A DNA stretch of 64,000 nt from Dehalococcoidia bacterium (GCA_965220655.1 CBDCQO010000012.1:234441-298440), one strand, 5' to 3'; numbered from the stretch's first letter, positions 20,309 to 24,701 are shown. The notes: generated from the letters alone by a model not told the origin. A program made the numbers and translations.

Positions 20309-20923
20309 ATGAAGGTCATCTTTCTCGAAGATGTGGCCGGCGCCGCTGATGCCGGCGAGGTCAAAGACGTCAAGAACGGGTTCGCCCGCAACTTCCTGCT
20401 GCCCCGCGGGCTTGCCGCCCCGGCGACCCCCGGACAGCTCCAGCGCATACGCGCTATCGAAGCCGCGGCGAAGCAGAAGCGCCTCCAGTACTCCGAGGAG
20501 TGGGGGCAGGTCGCCGCGCTGATTCAGGGCATGGAGGTGCCCGTAGAGGTGCGCGTGGGCCCGAACGGGCGCCTCTTCGGCTCCGTCACCGGACGCCATA
20601 TCGCCGACCGGCTCTCCGCTGCAACCGGCCGCACGATTGACCACCGGCAGGTGCTCCTCGGCGCCGCCATCCATGAACCCGGTGACTACCCAGTCAACAT
20701 CCGCCTCTACCGCGAAGTGACTGCTGAGATAACGGTCTCGGTCGTTCCTGAAGGTTACGAGGCTGCCCAGGCTGCGGATGCCGGATCCGAGGACGACGCG
20801 GCCGGGTCCGAAGAGAGCACCTGGGAAGAGTACGAAGACGAAGACCAGTCCCCCGACGACGACTACGACGAAGACGAAGATGAGCCCGGGGACGGCATAA
20901 CCGGAGAAGAAGAGGAGCCGTAG
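20309..20923 (+). CDS. rplI: 50S ribosomal protein L9 with long acidic C-terminal tail
   Basis: Track ORF of 204 aa. L9 N-terminus MKVIFLEDV...GEVKDVKNGFARNFLLPRGLA. The last ~55 aa are Asp/Glu-rich (EYEDEDQSPDDDYDEDEDEPGDGITGEEEEP). Confidence 0.92.
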   Translation: MKVIFLEDVAGAADAGEVKDVKNGFARNFLLPRGLAAPATPGQLQRIRAIEAAAKQKRLQYSEEWGQVAALIQGMEVPVEVRVGPNGRLFGSVTGRHIADRLSAATGRTIDHRQVLLGAAIHEPGDYPVNIRLYREVTAEITVSVVPEGYEAAQAADAGSEDDAAGSEESTWEEYEDEDQSPDDDYDEDEDEPGDGITGEEEEP

Positions 20924-20935
20924 GAACGAGGCAGG

Positions 20936-22300
20936 ATGTATGCGGAGAAGCTCCCACCACATGACGCGGATGCGGAAGAAGCGGTCATTGGCTCCCTCCT
21001 CATAGATGGGGAGGTGATCAACCGCATCGCGCCGCTCGTAGCGGTAGACGACTTCTACCGCGAGCGTAACCGGTGGTGCTACCAGGCCTGTCAGTCCCTC
21101 TACCAGCGCGGCGAGCCCATAGACCAGATCAGCGTTGCCCGTGAGCTTTCGCTCAGGGAGCGGCTTGAAGAGGTCGGCGGCCCCGGCTACCTCAGCCACG
21201 TCATCGCGGCGGTGCCCACGTCTGTCCACGCGGAGCACTTCGCCCGCATCGTCAACCGCACCGCAACCATGCGCAGGCTCATACAGGCCGCGGGCGACAT
21301 CGCAACTATCGGCTACGAGGACTCCCCCGATACGGAGCAGGCCCTCGAACGTGCGGAGGACATCCTCTTCCGCGTCCGCAACACCCACGTCACGCGCGAC
21401 TTCGTCACGATACGGGAAGTGCTGGACCAGTACCTCGAGGAGGCGTCCGATACCGCGCCGCTCGATCACGGCGTCGCGCCCATCCCCACCGGTTTCATCG
21501 ACCTCGACAACGCCCTCGGCCGCCTGCAGCGCGGCGACCTCTTCATCCTCGCGGCCCGTCCCGCGCTCGGCAAGTCGACCCTCGCCATGAACATCGCCCG
21601 CAACGCGGCGGGGCAGGGCGCCGTCGCCGCCGTCGTCAGCCTGGAGATGAGCCGCGAGCAGCTCGCGCTCCGCCTCCTCTCCGCCGAGGCGGAGGTCGAC
21701 AGCCACCTCCTGCGTATCGGCCTCCTCGGCGATACCGCACAGGCGCGCGTCATACACGGCATCGGCGCTCTCTCTGACCTCGCCATCTACATGGACGACT
21801 CGCCCGCCCAGACCGTCCTGGAGATGCGCTCCAAGCTCCGTCGGCTGCACACTGGAAGGAGCATCGACCTCGTCATCGTCGACTACCTTCAGCTCATCTC
21901 GGGAAGGGAGAATCGGGGCGAGAACCGCGTGCAGGAGTTGAGCGACATCACCCGCCAGTTGAAGGCCATCGCACGCGACCTCAACGTGCCGGTCATCGCC
22001 ATCTCCCAGCTCTCCCGCGCCATTGAGCAGCGCCCCGACCACCATCCGCAGCTCTCCGACCTCCGCGAGTCCGGCAGCATCGAGCAGGACGCTGACGTCG
22101 TTGCCTTCATCCATCGCGATGACAAGTACATGAGCCCGGAACAATGGGAGCAGCGCCACCCGACTGACCCCTATCCGGAGAACCTCGCGCAACTGGTCAT
22201 CGCCAAGAACCGCCACGGCCCCACGCGCTCCATCCACCTCTTCTTCGACGGCAAGTACTCGCGCTTCCTGAACTTGGCGACCGAACCGGCGACCCTATGA
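20936..22300 (+). CDS. dnaB: Replicative DNA helicase
   Basis: Track ORF of 454 aa. N-terminus PPHDADAEEAVIGSLL, Walker A ARPALGKST, IVDYLQLI, SQLSR. Confidence 0.95.
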   Translation: MYAEKLPPHDADAEEAVIGSLLIDGEVINRIAPLVAVDDFYRERNRWCYQACQSLYQRGEPIDQISVARELSLRERLEEVGGPGYLSHVIAAVPTSVHAEHFARIVNRTATMRRLIQAAGDIATIGYEDSPDTEQALERAEDILFRVRNTHVTRDFVTIREVLDQYLEEASDTAPLDHGVAPIPTGFIDLDNALGRLQRGDLFILAARPALGKSTLAMNIARNAAGQGAVAAVVSLEMSREQLALRLLSAEAEVDSHLLRIGLLGDTAQARVIHGIGALSDLAIYMDDSPAQTVLEMRSKLRRLHTGRSIDLVIVDYLQLISGRENRGENRVQELSDITRQLKAIARDLNVPVIAISQLSRAIEQRPDHHPQLSDLRESGSIEQDADVVAFIHRDDKYMSPEQWEQRHPTDPYPENLAQLVIAKNRHGPTRSIHLFFDGKYSRFLNLATEPATL

Positions 22301-22950
22301 CCGAGTCGACGTTCCCCGGGTTCGGGGCTGCTGTGAAGCGGTTGCCTGTCCCTGCGCCACTGCTCGCATCCCTCCTGGCCGACATCGCCGACTGCGCCGA
22401 GTTGAAGTGCACGCTGCGCTTCCTCTGGTACGAGGCCCAGCAGAGCGGCGCGCCGAAGCGCGTTCCGGCCTCGGCCCTGCGGACTGACGGCGTTCTGCTG
22501 GAAGCCCTCGGCTCCGAGGATGAGATCGAGCGCGGCATCGCGCTGGCGGTCGAGCGCGGTGCCCTCATTGAAGCGGGAGACTGGCTCCTGCTCCGCACGC
22601 CTCAGAACGAGCGCGCCGCTGGACGGTTCGGCCCCGCTCCGGCGCAGACGGCGGTCGGTCAACCGTCAGAACGCCCCAACGTCTTTCAGTTGTACGAAGA
22701 GAACATTGGTATGCTGACGCCGATGGTCGCCGACGAGTTGCGTGCCGCTGAGGAGGAATACCCCTCCGGGTGGGTGGAGGCGGCCATACGCGAGGCGACT
22801 GCGGGTAGCGTCCGCAGTTGGCGCTACATCGAAGCCATACTGGAACGCTGGAAACGCGAAGGGAGAGGAGCAAGGCCGAGTGGAAAGCCTGGGAGACATT
22901 CTGAGGCGCTTACAGCAGCGGAACTTCTCGAACGTCGCCGCCGTTCCTGA
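22297..22950 (+). CDS. DnaD-domain (replication initiation/helicase-loading accessory) protein
   Basis: Track ORF of 217 aa. The ATG overlaps the dnaB stop (ATGA). The C-terminal NVFQLYEENIGMLTPMVADELRAAEEEYPSGWVEAAIREA...RSWRYIEAILERWKRE matches the DnaD/DnaB_2 repeat as I recall it. Confidence 0.75.
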   Translation: MTESTFPGFGAAVKRLPVPAPLLASLLADIADCAELKCTLRFLWYEAQQSGAPKRVPASALRTDGVLLEALGSEDEIERGIALAVERGALIEAGDWLLLRTPQNERAAGRFGPAPAQTAVGQPSERPNVFQLYEENIGMLTPMVADELRAAEEEYPSGWVEAAIREATAGSVRSWRYIEAILERWKREGRGARPSGKPGRHSEALTAAELLERRRRS

Positions 22951-24274
22951 CTGGGTACAGCGACTCGACGCCGAGACCGCCAGTATTGACTCCTGCCCCA
23001 CCTGCGGCGGCCAGGGCTGGGTGCGCCGCGACGTGCCCGTCGACGACCCGGACTTCGGCCGCGCCTTCCCGTGCCTCTGCCAGGTGCAGCGAATCGAGTC
23101 GGACCGCCTCGCGCGACTACAGCGCTACAGTAGACTTGGCGTTCTGTATCACGTCACTTTCGGGAATTTGCCTCCGAGCGGTCCTGGCGTTGGGCCTGAG
23201 GCGAACGCTCGGTACGATGCCGCTCTCCGTGCTACACGAGCATTCGCCGAGACGCCCGTCGGCTCCCTGTTGCTCACCGGCGGCTACGGCACGGGCAAGA
23301 CCTGTCTCGCCGCCGCCGCTGCCAACCGTCTCATCCAGCAGGGACACCCCGTCCTCTTCACCTTCGTCCCTGACCTGCTCGACCAGCTCCGGGGCGGCTA
23401 TGCGGACGACGCGGAACTCTCCCACGACGAGGTGTTCGAGCAGGTCAAGAACGTCCCCGTGCTCGTCCTGGACGACATCGGCGCGCATAACGGCACTCCG
23501 TGGGCTGAGGAGAAGCTCTTCCAGGTCGTCAACCACCGCTACCTCAACGGCCTGCCCACCATCCTTACCTCGGCCATTCCCCTCGAGCGGCTGGACGGAC
23601 GCCTCCAGAGCAAGCTTACAGACCCTCGCAACGCGCTCGTCATCGACATGGGCGGGGCTACCGGTGCGAGGACCATGAGCCTCGGGGGCATCCCTCATGC
23701 CATGCTCAGCGGCATGACCTTCGACTCCTTTGAACCCCAGGGCCGGTCCCGCACGAGAGAGGACAGGGAGACGCTCGCTGCTGCTCTGTATGCCTCGCGA
23801 GCCTTCGCTGGAGAGCCGGACGGCTGGCTCGTCCTGGTGGGCGGCCCCGGCTGCGGCAAGACCCACCTCGCCGTCGCCGTTGCCAACCGGCAACTCGCGC
23901 AAGGTGGCGACGTCTTCTTCGCCTTCGTGCCCGACCTGCTTGATCACCTCCGCTACACTTTCAGTCCGGACAGCCGCGTCACCTACGACGAACTGTTCGA
24001 CCGCATCAAGCAGGCGCCGCTGCTCATCATGGACGACCTGGGCTCCGAGAGTTCCACGTCCTGGGCGGACGAGAAGCTCTACCAGATCATCGTCCACCGG
24101 CATAACGCCCGCCTCCCCACCGTCATCACCATGCGCACCCTTCCATCCGGCCCGGCCGATCCCGTCGCCTCGCGCCTCAACGATGCCCGTATGGTGACAG
24201 AGGTCCCTATCACTGCGCCGGACTACCGTCAGACGGGGCGCGTTCGGCAGGAGCCCCGCCGCGATGTCTCGTAG
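22880..24274 (+). CDS. DnaC/DnaI-like helicase loader with two tandem AAA+ modules
   Basis: The start is inferred as GTG 22880 (SD GGGAGAGGAG at 22861..22870), giving a 71-nt overlap with the dnaD-like gene. CPTCGGQGW...FPCLC zinc-ribbon-like N-terminus. Module 1 has GGYGTGKT (23279..23302) and VLVLDDIG. Module 2 has GGPGCGKT (23840..23863) and LLIMDDLG. Confidence 0.8.
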   Translation: MESLGDILRRLQQRNFSNVAAVPDWVQRLDAETASIDSCPTCGGQGWVRRDVPVDDPDFGRAFPCLCQVQRIESDRLARLQRYSRLGVLYHVTFGNLPPSGPGVGPEANARYDAALRATRAFAETPVGSLLLTGGYGTGKTCLAAAAANRLIQQGHPVLFTFVPDLLDQLRGGYADDAELSHDEVFEQVKNVPVLVLDDIGAHNGTPWAEEKLFQVVNHRYLNGLPTILTSAIPLERLDGRLQSKLTDPRNALVIDMGGATGARTMSLGGIPHAMLSGMTFDSFEPQGRSRTREDRETLAAALYASRAFAGEPDGWLVLVGGPGCGKTHLAVAVANRQLAQGGDVFFAFVPDLLDHLRYTFSPDSRVTYDELFDRIKQAPLLIMDDLGSESSTSWADEKLYQIIVHRHNARLPTVITMRTLPSGPADPVASRLNDARMVTEVPITAPDYRQTGRVRQEPRRDVS

Positions 24275-24701
24275 CGTCCCTTCGGGCGGCTCGGGTGAGT
24301 GCGCGTTCTGCGGCATCGCATCCGGCGCGCTCCCACGCCGCATCCGCTACCAGGACGACGAACTCGTCGCCTTCGACAATGCACTCGATTGGGCGCCGCT
24401 CATGTACCTCGTTGCGCCGGTCGTCCACATGAGCCAGCAGGAGTTCTGGCAGTCGCCGCTCTTCTCCCGCGCTGCGCAACTCGCCGTCGAGCTCGGCGGG
24501 TCCGACGCGCCCGGCGGCTTCCGCATCGTCTCCAACTTCGGCGCCGACGCGATGCAGTCCCAGCCACACGGTCACCTGCACGTACTCGGCGGAGCGCACC
24601 TCGGCCTCTACATGGACTTCCCCGGCAAGAGTGACTTCTGGCTCCGCTTCTACGGCAGCGAACAGCACGACCCCCTCACCTTCCGGAAGCGCCATCCGTG
24701 A
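24264..24701 (+). CDS. HIT-family hydrolase
   Basis: Track ORF of 145 aa. Histidine triad QPHGHLHVLGG. 11-nt overlap with the upstream gene. Confidence 0.85.
   Translation: MSRSVPSGGSGECAFCGIASGALPRRIRYQDDELVAFDNALDWAPLMYLVAPVVHMSQQEFWQSPLFSRAAQLAVELGGSDAPGGFRIVSNFGADAMQSQPHGHLHVLGGAHLGLYMDFPGKSDFWLRFYGSEQHDPLTFRKRHP

What the first reader, a model, noticed from the sequence alone, without database searches (positions are those of the whole stretch)
22297..24274. dnaB is followed by a DnaD-domain gene and a DnaC/DnaI-like loader containing two complete AAA+ modules in one polypeptide
Seen: the ORF at 22297..22950 overlaps the dnaB stop (ATGA) and ends with a DnaD-type repeat (...RSWRYIEAILERWKRE). 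The next ORF is about 464 aa from GTG 22880, with a 71-nt overlap. It begins with CPTCGGQGW...FPCLC. Module 1 is (V)TFGNL...GGYGTGKT...VLVLDDIG...LQSKL. A second full copy follows: MTFDSFEP...GGPGCGKTHLAVAVAN...LLIMDDLG...VASRLND...DYR. Both Walker A/B pairs look intact, but the SRL-type arginine is kept only in module 2 (SKL in module 1). Known: DnaC/DnaI/IstB loaders have one AAA+ domain and oligomerise on DnaB. Inference: this is a covalent loader dimer, possibly with one catalytic and one regulatory or degenerate site, working with a DnaD-like adaptor. I do not recognise this loader architecture as described.
Basis: partly seen in the sequence, partly recalled or inferred. Interest (0 to 1): 0.7.

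Follow-up and report, generated by a model that had tools for sequence, protein, structure and literature searches.

The report
Tandem-AAA+ helicase loader of Chloroflexota
The gene after dnaB and a DnaD-like gene encodes a DnaC/DnaI-type helicase loader with two ATPase modules in one chain; this layout is conserved across the phylum Chloroflexota, I found no description of it, and it suggests these bacteria load their replicative helicase with pre-joined loader dimers.

Summary
dnaB (20936-22300), a DnaD-domain gene (22297-22950) and a 464-aa ORF from GTG 22880 to 24274 are present as described. The long ORF has a DnaI-like N-terminal helix and Cys4 zinc motif, followed by two IstB/DnaC-type AAA+ modules that are 46% identical (E 8e-44).

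It is not an assembly artefact. At least 505 species-level Chloroflexota genomes encode it (Dehalococcoidia, Anaerolineae, Ardenticatenia, Chloroflexia). All but a few of the 80 loci whose contigs reach far enough upstream show dnaB-dnaD-loader.

Both Walker A lysines are invariant in 199 homologues. Both Walker B motifs and both ssDNA-binding tetrads are conserved.

In the window's lineage module 1 is catalytically degenerate: no sensor I Asn, no sensor II, and Lys in place of the Arg finger. Module 2 keeps the Arg finger and sensor II. In Anaerolineae module 1 is fully canonical, so the asymmetry is lineage-specific.

No tandem form turned up in the phage, plasmid, IMG/VR, BFVD or PDB searches. 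Seven literature searches found no description; Brézellec 2016 only lists one resident dna[CI] gene in Chloroflexi.

Most likely this is the chromosomal DnaB loader, acting as a covalent AAA+ dimer with the DnaD-like partner. Stoichiometry and site roles are inferred, not shown. Rare 3- and 4-module variants exist.

The parts
20936..22300 (+). dnaB, replicative DNA helicase (454 aa), preceded by rplI at 20309-20923
   Evidence: TIGR00665 481.5 bits (cut-off 385); Pfam DnaB and DnaB_C.
22297..22950 (+). DnaD-domain protein (217 aa). The C-terminal half is a DDBH2/DnaD domain with YxxxIxxxW. The fold of the N-terminal half is unassigned. It has a basic C-terminal tail.
   Evidence: PF07261 1e-9 and TIGR01446. 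PHROG 186 'DnaD-like helicase loader'. The family profile matches B. subtilis DnaD 8ojj at E 2.3e-8, co-linear, profile positions 118-219 to chain 106-208. Found upstream of the loader in nearly all 80 loci.
22861..22870 (+). Shine-Dalgarno-like GGAGAGGAG, 9 nt upstream of the loader's GTG start and inside dnaD
   Evidence: Direct reading of the sequence.
22880..22950 (+). 71-nt out-of-frame overlap of the dnaD 3' end with the loader 5' end
   Evidence: An overlap is present in 73 of 75 Chloroflexota loci, median 80 nt.
22880..24274 (+). Tandem-AAA+ DnaI/DnaC-type helicase loader (464 aa)
22880..22927 (+). Conserved N-terminal helix MESLGDILRRLQQRNF (residues 1-16)
   Evidence: Conserved across classes as ME.(L/I)..(I/L)LK(R/K). 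AF2 predicts helix 4-16, though with low pLDDT.
22994..23080 (+). Zinc-binding-type motif CPTC...(D56)...CLC (residues 39-67), DnaI N-domain-like
   Evidence: The HMMER alignment to B. subtilis DnaI (4m4w) pairs C39 with C67, C42 with C70, position 56 with H84, and C65 with C101. The Cys residues are conserved wherever the region is present. Position 56 is His in 138 of 199 sequences and Asp in the window.
23135..23647 (+). AAA+ module 1 (residues 86-256). Walker A G134-T141; Walker B V194-D199; ssDNA tetrad R171, Y174, T206, W208; Box VII R241 and K245; sensor I position A232; no sensor II.
23648..23695 (+). Inter-module linker (residues 257-272)
   Evidence: pLDDT is below 50 at residues 260-266. 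Sequence is variable between homologues.
23696..24235 (+). AAA+ module 2 (residues 273-452). Walker A G321-T328; Walker B L381-D386; tetrad R358, F361, T393, W395; Arg finger R432; P428 at the coupler position; R419 at the sensor I position; sensor II D448-Y449-R450.
24264..24701 (+). HIT-family gene overlapping the loader stop by 11 nt (probably the same operon; role in the system unknown)
   Evidence: PF01230 and PF11969. Downstream of the loader in 11 of the 80 loci and in L081/L082.

Best explanation
This is the resident chromosomal helicase-loading module of a Chloroflexota bacterium: dnaB, a DnaD-like adaptor, and a DnaI/DnaC-type loader.

The loader chain has one helicase-binding N-domain (a conserved helix plus a DnaI-type zinc motif) and two concatenated initiator-clade AAA+ modules.

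**Shown by sequence**
- Both modules keep the P-loop, Walker B, the two-helix insertion typical of initiator-clade AAA+ proteins, and the DnaC ssDNA-binding tetrad.
- The gene is single-copy in the window.
- It is vertically conserved with dnaB and dnaD throughout the phylum.

**Inferred**
- The two modules pack head-to-tail like neighbouring DnaC protomers. Each chain would then be a pre-formed loader dimer.
- Three chains would supply the six AAA+ modules that sit on a DnaB hexamer. This echoes the 'three DnaI dimers per hexamer' seen for Bacillus.
- There would be two kinds of ATP site, one within a chain and one between chains.
- In the window's lineage the module-1 site lacks sensor I and sensor II. 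It probably binds ATP but hydrolyses it poorly, acting as a structural site.
- The module-2 site has sensor II R450 in cis, and K245 plus the coupler R241 from a module 1 in trans. It is the better candidate for the regulated, ssDNA-coupled hydrolysis that releases the loader.
- The DnaD-like protein, translationally coupled through a conserved overlap of about 80 nt, would recruit the complex to DnaA/oriC as in Firmicutes.
For: - **Two AAA+ hits** in three profile libraries. Internal repeat at E 8e-44.
- **More than 120 full-length homologues** at 48-93% identity.
- **At least 505 species-level genomes** in all major Chloroflexota classes.
- **rplI-dnaB-dnaD-loader synteny** in nearly all 80 loci, with housekeeping neighbours and no transposase.
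- **Conserved residues**. Walker A Lys is 199/199 in both modules. Walker B first Asp is 198/199 in both. The tetrad is conserved in both. The Arg finger is R/K in 192/199 for module 1 and R in 196 for module 2.
- **N-domain** aligns to the DnaI zinc ligands C67, C70, H84 and C101.
- **AF2** gives two confident AAA+ folds, each with a two-helix insertion between strands 2 and 3.
- **Best structural matches** are Aquifex DnaC 3ecc (TM 0.77), DnaI 2w58, IstB and E. coli DnaC 6qem.
- **Brézellec 2016** supplementary table lists exactly one dna[CI] gene and no dciA in 14 of 15 Chloroflexi genomes.
- **Liu 2013** reports that a DnaB hexamer binds three non-equivalent DnaI dimers.
- **Puri 2021** defines the roles of K112, E170, N203, R216, R220, R237 and the tetrad that are mapped here.
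- **Motif census by class**.
Against: - No experiment exists on any member of this family.
- AF2 does not fix the relative orientation of the modules (pTM 0.47, linker pLDDT below 50). Head-to-tail packing and the assignment of within-chain versus between-chain sites are therefore untested.
- Neither module in the window has the canonical sensor I Asn (A232 and R419). In E. coli DnaC the N203A change abolishes ATPase activity. Both sites may be poor hydrolases.
- Rare relatives have 3 modules (L083) or 4 modules (P0122). The 4-module form does not fit a strict 'six modules per hexamer' count.
- I could not scan this organism's whole genome for a second loader or a DciA.
- A bioRxiv survey reports DciA homologues assigned to Chloroflexi.
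Confidence: 0.72

Rival explanations
1. Only one module works as a loader ATPase. The other is a pseudo-ATPase spacer or scaffold that does not join the loader spiral. Six chains bind each DnaB hexamer as in E. coli, and the extra module hangs off, for example to contact DnaD, DnaA or DNA.
For: In the window module 1 lacks sensor I and sensor II and has Lys in place of the Arg finger. There is only one helicase-binding N-domain per chain, and DnaB offers six binding sites. AF2 gives no confident inter-module packing. The 4-module variant does not divide six.
Against: Both P-loops and both ssDNA tetrads are invariant or nearly so across 199 sequences. The two modules evolve at the same rate: 51% versus 52% mean identity between genomes. 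In Anaerolineae module 1 is fully canonical. A mere spacer would not keep Walker A, Walker B, the tetrad and Box VII.
Confidence: 0.2
2. It is not the replication-initiation loader. It is an IstB-like transposition helper, a prophage replication protein, or a restart-specific factor that happens to sit next to dnaB.
For: The best Pfam family is IstB_IS21. DnaD-like plus DnaC-like gene pairs are typical phage replication modules. Single-module viral relatives reach 38-43% identity.
Against: There is no transposase or phage gene within about 10 kb in syntenic relatives, and the neighbours are housekeeping genes such as rib, purL, rplI and crcB. The gene is conserved vertically with dnaB across a whole phylum. 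It is the only dna[CI] gene listed for Chloroflexi genomes, which have no dciA. No tandem form was found in the phage, plasmid, IMG/VR or BFVD searches.
Confidence: 0.06
3. The long ORF is an artefact: two adjacent loader genes fused by a sequencing or assembly error near 23650-23720.
For: Nothing beyond the a priori possibility. One close homologue, P0065, is called as 296 aa.
Against: The uninterrupted ORF is found in more than 120 protein clusters and at least 505 genomes from independent assemblies, including closed chromosomes. P0065 ends inside the start of module 2, so it is the truncated one.
Confidence: 0.01

Closest known systems
Bacillus subtilis / Geobacillus DnaI with DnaD and DnaB(Bsu) (PDB 4m4w, 2w58, 8ojj)
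   Same: N-terminal zinc-binding helicase-interaction domain, with ligands aligning to C67, C70, H84 and C101. DD-type Walker B. A DnaD-domain partner gene next to the loader. The loader is seen on the helicase as three non-equivalent dimers.
   Different: DnaI has one AAA+ domain per chain. The Firmicute system uses two DnaD-family proteins (DnaD and DnaB), whereas only one is seen in this operon. AAA+ identity is only about 26-32%. The conserved N-terminal helix upstream of the zinc motif looks more like the E. coli DnaC N-terminus; that comparison is from memory, not tested.
Escherichia coli DnaC (PDB 6qel, 6qem)
   Same: Initiator-clade AAA+ fold. The ssDNA tetrad K143/F146/S177/Y179 maps to R171/Y174/T206/W208 and R358/F361/T393/W395. 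The Arg-coupler plus Arg-finger pair (RxxxR) is kept in module 1. The sensor II 'SYR' maps to 'DYR' in module 2.
   Different: DnaC has a single AAA+ domain and works as six separate chains. It has no zinc motif and no DnaD partner. Its sensor I Asn is essential, whereas that residue is absent from both modules here.
IstB of IS21/IS5376 (PDB 5bq5, 8q3w) and Pfam PF01695
   Same: Best Pfam model. Same AAA+ clade. TM about 0.6-0.7 per module.
   Different: IstB is encoded next to the IstA transposase inside an insertion sequence and has one AAA+ domain. Here there is no transposase, and the context is a housekeeping dnaB operon.
Phage DnaC-like loaders (PHROG 50; NCBIfam PRK08116)
   Same: Highest-scoring profiles. 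Often paired with a DnaD-like gene. Probably the evolutionary source of resident dna[CI] genes according to Brézellec 2016.
   Different: None of the phage, plasmid, IMG/VR and BFVD relatives that I could inspect has more than one AAA+ module.
Type II AAA+ proteins with two modules per chain (p97/VCP, NSF, ClpB)
   Same: Two AAA+ modules in one polypeptide, often with one hydrolytic and one mainly structural site. They come first by Foldseek E-value because both modules align.
   Different: They belong to a different AAA+ clade, have full lid domains, and form stacked planar double rings. TM is only 0.21-0.31 with rmsd 14-18 Å. The initiator-clade insertion seen here favours open spirals, not stacked rings; that is established knowledge, not tested here.

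Membership tests
DnaC/DnaI-type AAA+ helicase loader | Initiator-clade AAA+ domain with Walker A and Walker B | tested here: met
   Two IstB_IS21/AAA stretches. GKT and hhhhDD are present in both modules and invariant or nearly so in 199 homologues.
DnaC/DnaI-type AAA+ helicase loader | Two-helix insertion (initiator-specific motif) between strands 2 and 3 | tested here: met
   AF2 secondary structure gives E158-162, H163-172, H182-191, E194-198 in module 1 and E346-349, H350-360, H366-378, E382-387 in module 2. This was judged from secondary structure only.
DnaC/DnaI-type AAA+ helicase loader | N-terminal helicase-binding domain (DnaI type: zinc-binding) | tested here: met
   CxxC...(H/D)...CxC aligns to the DnaI zinc ligands and is conserved. 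Binding to DnaB itself is not testable here.
DnaC/DnaI-type AAA+ helicase loader | ssDNA-binding tetrad (E. coli K143, F146, S177, Y179) | tested here: met
   R171/Y174/T206/W208 and R358/F361/T393/W395, conserved in both modules.
DnaC/DnaI-type AAA+ helicase loader | Full catalytic set: sensor I Asn, Arg finger, sensor II Arg | tested here: not met
   In the window, module 1 has A232, K245 and no sensor II. Module 2 has R419 at the sensor I position, R432 and R450. The full set is met in module 1 of Anaerolineae relatives.
DnaC/DnaI-type AAA+ helicase loader | One AAA+ module per polypeptide (all characterised members) | tested here: not met
   Two modules here. Relatives have 2 as the norm, rarely 3 or 4. 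This is the point of departure from the known family.
DnaC/DnaI-type AAA+ helicase loader | Resident chromosomal gene associated with replication genes; loads DnaB | tested here: inconclusive
   The genomic association is met. Loading activity is not testable with these tools.
IstB (IS21 transposition helper) | Adjacent IstA transposase within an insertion sequence | tested here: not met
   No transposase among the called genes within about 10 kb in the syntenic loci L081 and L082. No other DnaC-like ORF in the window.
DnaD / DnaB(Bsu) family (DDBH2, PF07261) | DDBH2 domain with the YxxxIxxxW motif | tested here: met
   PF07261 38.4 bits against a cut-off of 22. Y177, I181 and W185 are present, with W175, Y177, L182 and W185 invariant in 18 homologues. 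Matches 2zc2, 8ojj and 2i5u.
DnaD / DnaB(Bsu) family (DDBH2, PF07261) | N-terminal winged-helix DDBH1 oligomerisation domain | tested here: inconclusive
   Neither Pfam nor a family profile against PDB sequences matches residues 1-117. No structure prediction was made.
Type II (double-ring) AAA+ such as p97, NSF, ClpB | Classic-clade modules with lid domains stacked as two rings | tested here: not met
   TM 0.21-0.31 with rmsd 14-18 Å. Each module matches DnaC, DnaI or IstB at TM 0.6-0.77 instead.

The most novel reading that the evidence does not exclude
Chloroflexota load DnaB with concatenated loader protomers. The AAA+ spiral would be built from three two-module chains, or from fewer chains with more modules.

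ATP sites within a chain and between chains would have separate jobs: a permanent 'glue' site and a regulated, ssDNA-coupled release site. Which module degenerates differs between classes.

The system would be a natural covalently linked AAA+ dimer. It would show that a bacterial helicase loader needs only three helicase-binding domains per hexamer, and that the number of protomers per chain can evolve (2 to 4). Its expression would be tied to a DnaD-like adaptor through a phylum-wide dual-coding overlap.
Probability: 0.35. Interest if true: 0.75.

Novelty: new variant of a known kind. Interest (0 to 1): 0.62.

Why it matters
All mechanistic work on bacterial AAA+ helicase loaders (E. coli DnaC, Bacillus DnaI, Aquifex DnaC) concerns proteins with one AAA+ domain that assemble six at a time.

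A phylum-wide loader with two modules in one chain is a natural experiment on three open questions:
- how many helicase-binding domains are needed to crack a DnaB ring;
- whether all ATP sites in the loader spiral are equivalent;
- how hydrolysis at particular interfaces triggers release.

Each chain contains one fixed and one free interface, so single point mutations would hit only one class of site. That needs engineered concatemers in E. coli.

It also extends the DnaD-dependent (Firmicute-type) loading pathway to Chloroflexota. And it corrects routine annotation, in two ways. The gene is named only 'ATP-binding protein' or 'DnaC'. In some relatives the called start lies downstream of the dnaD stop, so the called protein lacks the conserved N-terminal helix.

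Tried and rejected
- **AlphaFold database search.** Foldseek against afdb50 would have shown UniProt organisms with the same two-module fold. The library was not installed.
- **Exact-sequence lookup of the window protein.** It is not on record. I used the 89%-identical P0002 for annotated context instead.
- **Module orientation.** I hoped AF2 would give it.
- **Dating the duplication.**
  - A neighbour-joining tree with DnaC and DnaI outgroups gave modules 1+2 as monophyletic, but neither module alone.
  - No position distinguishes module 1 from module 2 at 85% or more across the phylum.
  - HMMs trained on Dehalococcoidia misclassify 22 of 136 modules from other lineages.
  - Nearest neighbours are same-class in 154 of 160 cases.
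  - Single old duplication, gene conversion and parallel duplications remain unresolved.
- **HMMER offset at Box VII.** The HMMER alignment placed the module-1 'SRL/SKL' residue opposite DnaC R216. I rejected that end-of-alignment offset because of the RxxxR spacing and the distance to the following strand in the AF2 model (7 residues in both modules against 6 in DnaC).
- **K245 and R419.** I tested whether K245 co-occurs with Arg at M2 position 419. It does not: 18 with, 22 without.
- **Literature.** Seven full-text searches for tandem or two-domain loaders, or for DnaC/DnaD in Chloroflexi, found no description.
- **DnaD N-terminal domain.** It could not be assigned by sequence.


Full report
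**What is in the sequence.** The window (66.5% G+C) carries rplI (20309-20923), dnaB (20936-22300; TIGR00665 481 bits), a 217-aa ORF (22297-22950) and a long ORF ending at 24274, all on the + strand.
- The 217-aa ORF overlaps the dnaB stop through ATGA.
- Its residues 130-189 match the DnaD/DnaB_2 domain (PF07261 38.4 bits, TIGR01446, PHROG 186). They also match solved DnaD domains, including B. subtilis DnaD, co-linearly. The YxxxIxxxW motif is present.
- In the long ORF the possible in-frame starts are 22742, 22880, 23021 and 23033.
- Only GTG 22880 has a Shine-Dalgarno sequence (GGGAGAGGAG, 9 nt upstream). Only it keeps the zinc motif and gives the N-terminus M/V-ESLGDILKRL that distant homologues share.
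- The loader is therefore 464 aa and overlaps dnaD by 71 nt.

**Two modules.** Pfam IstB_IS21, NCBIfam PRK08116 (223 bits) and PHROG 50 each report two separate matches. Residues 87-230 and 274-417 align at 46% identity, E 8e-44. An AlphaFold2 model built on 32 homologues gives two confident AAA+ folds. Each has a two-helix insertion between strands 2 and 3. A low-confidence linker (residues 257-272) joins them, and the relative orientation is not fixed (pLDDT 78.9, pTM 0.47). Per module, the best structural matches are:
- Aquifex DnaC 3ecc (TM 0.77);
- DnaI 2w58;
- IstB;
- E. coli DnaC 6qel/6qem.

p97-type double-ring proteins align over both modules, but only at TM 0.21-0.31.

**N-terminal domain.** Residues 1-16 form a conserved helix. 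Residues 39-67 carry CxxC...CxC. In the HMMER alignment to B. subtilis DnaI these residues pair with the published zinc ligands C67, C70 and C101. Position 56 pairs with H84; it is His in 138 of 199 homologues and Asp in the window. There is one such domain per chain.

**It is real and phylum-wide.**
- The protein search returned more than 120 full-length relatives at 48-93% identity. Where named, they are called only 'ATP-binding protein' or 'DnaC' from Chloroflexota.
The 80 loci fetched span Dehalococcoidia, Anaerolineae, Ardenticatenia and Chloroflexia, including Anaerolinea thermophila and Dehalogenimonas.
- The closest is a Dehalococcoidia MAG at 91% identity.
- Nearly every locus whose contig reaches far enough upstream shows dnaB-dnaD-loader, most also with rplI upstream.
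- In an 89%-identical relative on a 2.9-Mb contig the neighbours are housekeeping genes: riboflavin synthesis, purL, crcB. There is no transposase or phage gene.
- The window has no other DnaC-like ORF.
- Brézellec et al. 2016 list one domesticated dna[CI] gene and no dciA in 14 of 15 Chloroflexi genomes. Neither the main text nor the searchable supplements mention a tandem layout.

**Residue-level reading.** I mapped the functional residues of E. coli DnaC defined by Puri et al. 2021 onto both modules, using the HMMER alignment and the model's secondary structure. Across 199 homologues:
- both Walker A lysines are invariant;
- both Walker B aspartates are at least 96% conserved;
- both ssDNA tetrads are conserved (R171/Y174/T206/W208 and R358/F361/T393/W395).

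The remaining catalytic residues differ between the two modules:

| Element | Module 1 | Module 2 |
|---|---|---|
| Arg coupler position | R241 (180/199) | 428: Pro in 118, Arg in 58 (Pro in the window) |
| Arg finger | position 245: R in 152, K in 40 (K in the window's clade) | R432 (196) |
| Sensor II | none in the window | D-Y-R448-450, R in 182 |
| Sensor I position | A232 in the window | R419 in the window |

Neither module in the window has the canonical sensor I Asn.

**The asymmetry is lineage-specific**.
- In 23 Anaerolineae, module 1 is fully canonical: sensor I Asn 23/23, coupler 23/23, finger 23/23, and a D[YF]R tail in 22/23. Module 2 never has the sensor I Asn.
- In 37 Dehalococcoidia, module 1 has lost sensor II (0/37) and almost always the Asn (2/37). 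Module 2 keeps sensor II (33/37) and the finger (37/37).
- The ancestral fusion therefore probably had two complete modules, and different lineages degraded different sites.

**Mechanism (inferred).**
- One chain carries one helicase-binding domain and two spiral-forming AAA+ modules. The simplest model is a covalent loader dimer.
- Three chains would give the six modules that cover a DnaB hexamer.
- Liu et al. 2013 saw the Bacillus loader on the helicase as three dimers with non-equivalent monomers. That is the arrangement a fusion would fix.
- If modules alternate in the spiral, module 1's site is completed by R432 of a module 2. Module 2's site is completed by R241 and K245 of a module 1.
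- In this window the first site lacks two of the five residues that are individually essential for E. coli DnaC ATPase. It probably only binds ATP.
- The second site keeps sensor II and the coupler that gates hydrolysis on ssDNA binding.
- Which site lies within a chain could not be determined.
- The DnaD-like protein is expected to bridge to DnaA/oriC as in Firmicutes.

**Is the layout found elsewhere?**
- In 50,697 phage records and 72,556 plasmids, every listed hit spans a single module.
- The best 80 of 515 IMG/VR relatives are also single-module, at up to 38-43% identity.
- So are the best BFVD structures.
- No solved structure has two DnaC-type modules in one chain.
- Within Chloroflexota, rare longer forms exist.
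  - A 690-aa protein with three modules sits in the same rplI-dnaB-dnaD context (L083).
  - An 827-aa protein has four modules that are 40-67% identical. Each module has Walker A, Walker B, RxxSR and a sensor II-like motif (P0122).
- These variants show that the number of modules per chain is plastic. They argue against a rigid 'exactly six' rule.

**Evolution.**
- Modules 1 and 2 together are monophyletic against DnaC and DnaI outgroups, but neither module is monophyletic alone.
- Within classes, a module's nearest neighbour is the same module from another genome in 154 of 160 cases.
- Between Dehalococcoidia and Anaerolineae, module 1-to-1 identity (48.5%) equals module 1-to-2 identity (49.1%).
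- Within-protein identity ranges from 35% to 72%.
- The age of the duplication, and any role for gene conversion, stay open.

**Verdict.** The protein belongs to the DnaC/DnaI loader family by fold, motifs and context. It departs from every characterised member in having two (rarely more) AAA+ modules per chain. I rate it a new variant of a known kind. It is of real interest to replication specialists, but the mechanism is still inferred.

Noticed in passing
window 22880-22950; loci L001-L080: The out-of-frame dnaD/loader overlap is conserved across the phylum: 73 of 75 loci overlap, median 80 nt. Both frames carry conserved peptides. One is the loader's N-terminal helix ME.(L/I)..(I/L)LK(R/K). 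The other is a DnaD C-terminal motif, for example DPDKYIKGKYGHMVQR in Dehalococcoidia and RRRYIEGEYADFIEH in Anaerolineae and Chloroflexia. The window's clade has a different tail (GKPGRHSEALTAAELLERRRRS). A dual-coding stretch this long and this conserved is unusual.
   Followed up: partly
L083 5656-7728; proteins P0112, P0122, P0127, P0132: Relatives with more than two modules exist. L083 encodes a 690-aa loader with three AAA+ modules in the same rplI-dnaB-dnaD context. P0122 (827 aa) has four complete modules at 40-67% identity. P0127 and P0132 contain near-identical repeated modules, which could be very recent duplications, gene conversion or assembly errors.
   Followed up: partly
L081 10001-11317 and L082 6102-7418, against window 22880: Automatic gene calls in close relatives start the loader just after the dnaD stop (438 aa, MQQLD...). 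This cuts off the conserved N-terminal helix. The window has no start codon at that position, which supports the upstream GTG. Many database entries of 417-440 aa are probably N-terminally truncated calls.
   Followed up: partly
loader residues 419 and 428 (window 24134-24136 and 24161-24163): In module 2, Arg at the sensor I position (419) and Arg at the coupler position (428) almost never occur together. Of 199 sequences, 1 has both, 158 have exactly one and 40 have neither. This may be one or two clade-level events rather than compensation. Phylogenetic independence was not assessed.
   Followed up: no
L021 2349-5126, L071 873-3506, L074 1282-5157: Some Chloroflexota dnaB reading frames are 880-1290 codons long instead of about 450. 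These are probably intein-containing DnaB genes.
   Followed up: no
window 24264-24701: A HIT-family gene overlaps the loader stop by 11 nt. It follows the loader in 11 of the 80 loci, and crcB lies further downstream. The link to replication is unknown.
   Followed up: no
L084 5001-5774, L085 802-1458 (IMG/VR contigs): Viral contigs encode single-module relatives at 38-43% identity. L084 also matches the loader's N-terminal region (query residues 9-451 within a stretch of about 258 aa). They are candidates for the phage lineage from which the Chloroflexota loader was domesticated.
   Followed up: no
L014 and L037: Two loci with the full Chloroflexota-type operon come from MAGs labelled Proteobacteria and Acidimicrobiia. 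Mis-binning or mislabelling is more likely than real occurrence outside the phylum.
   Followed up: no
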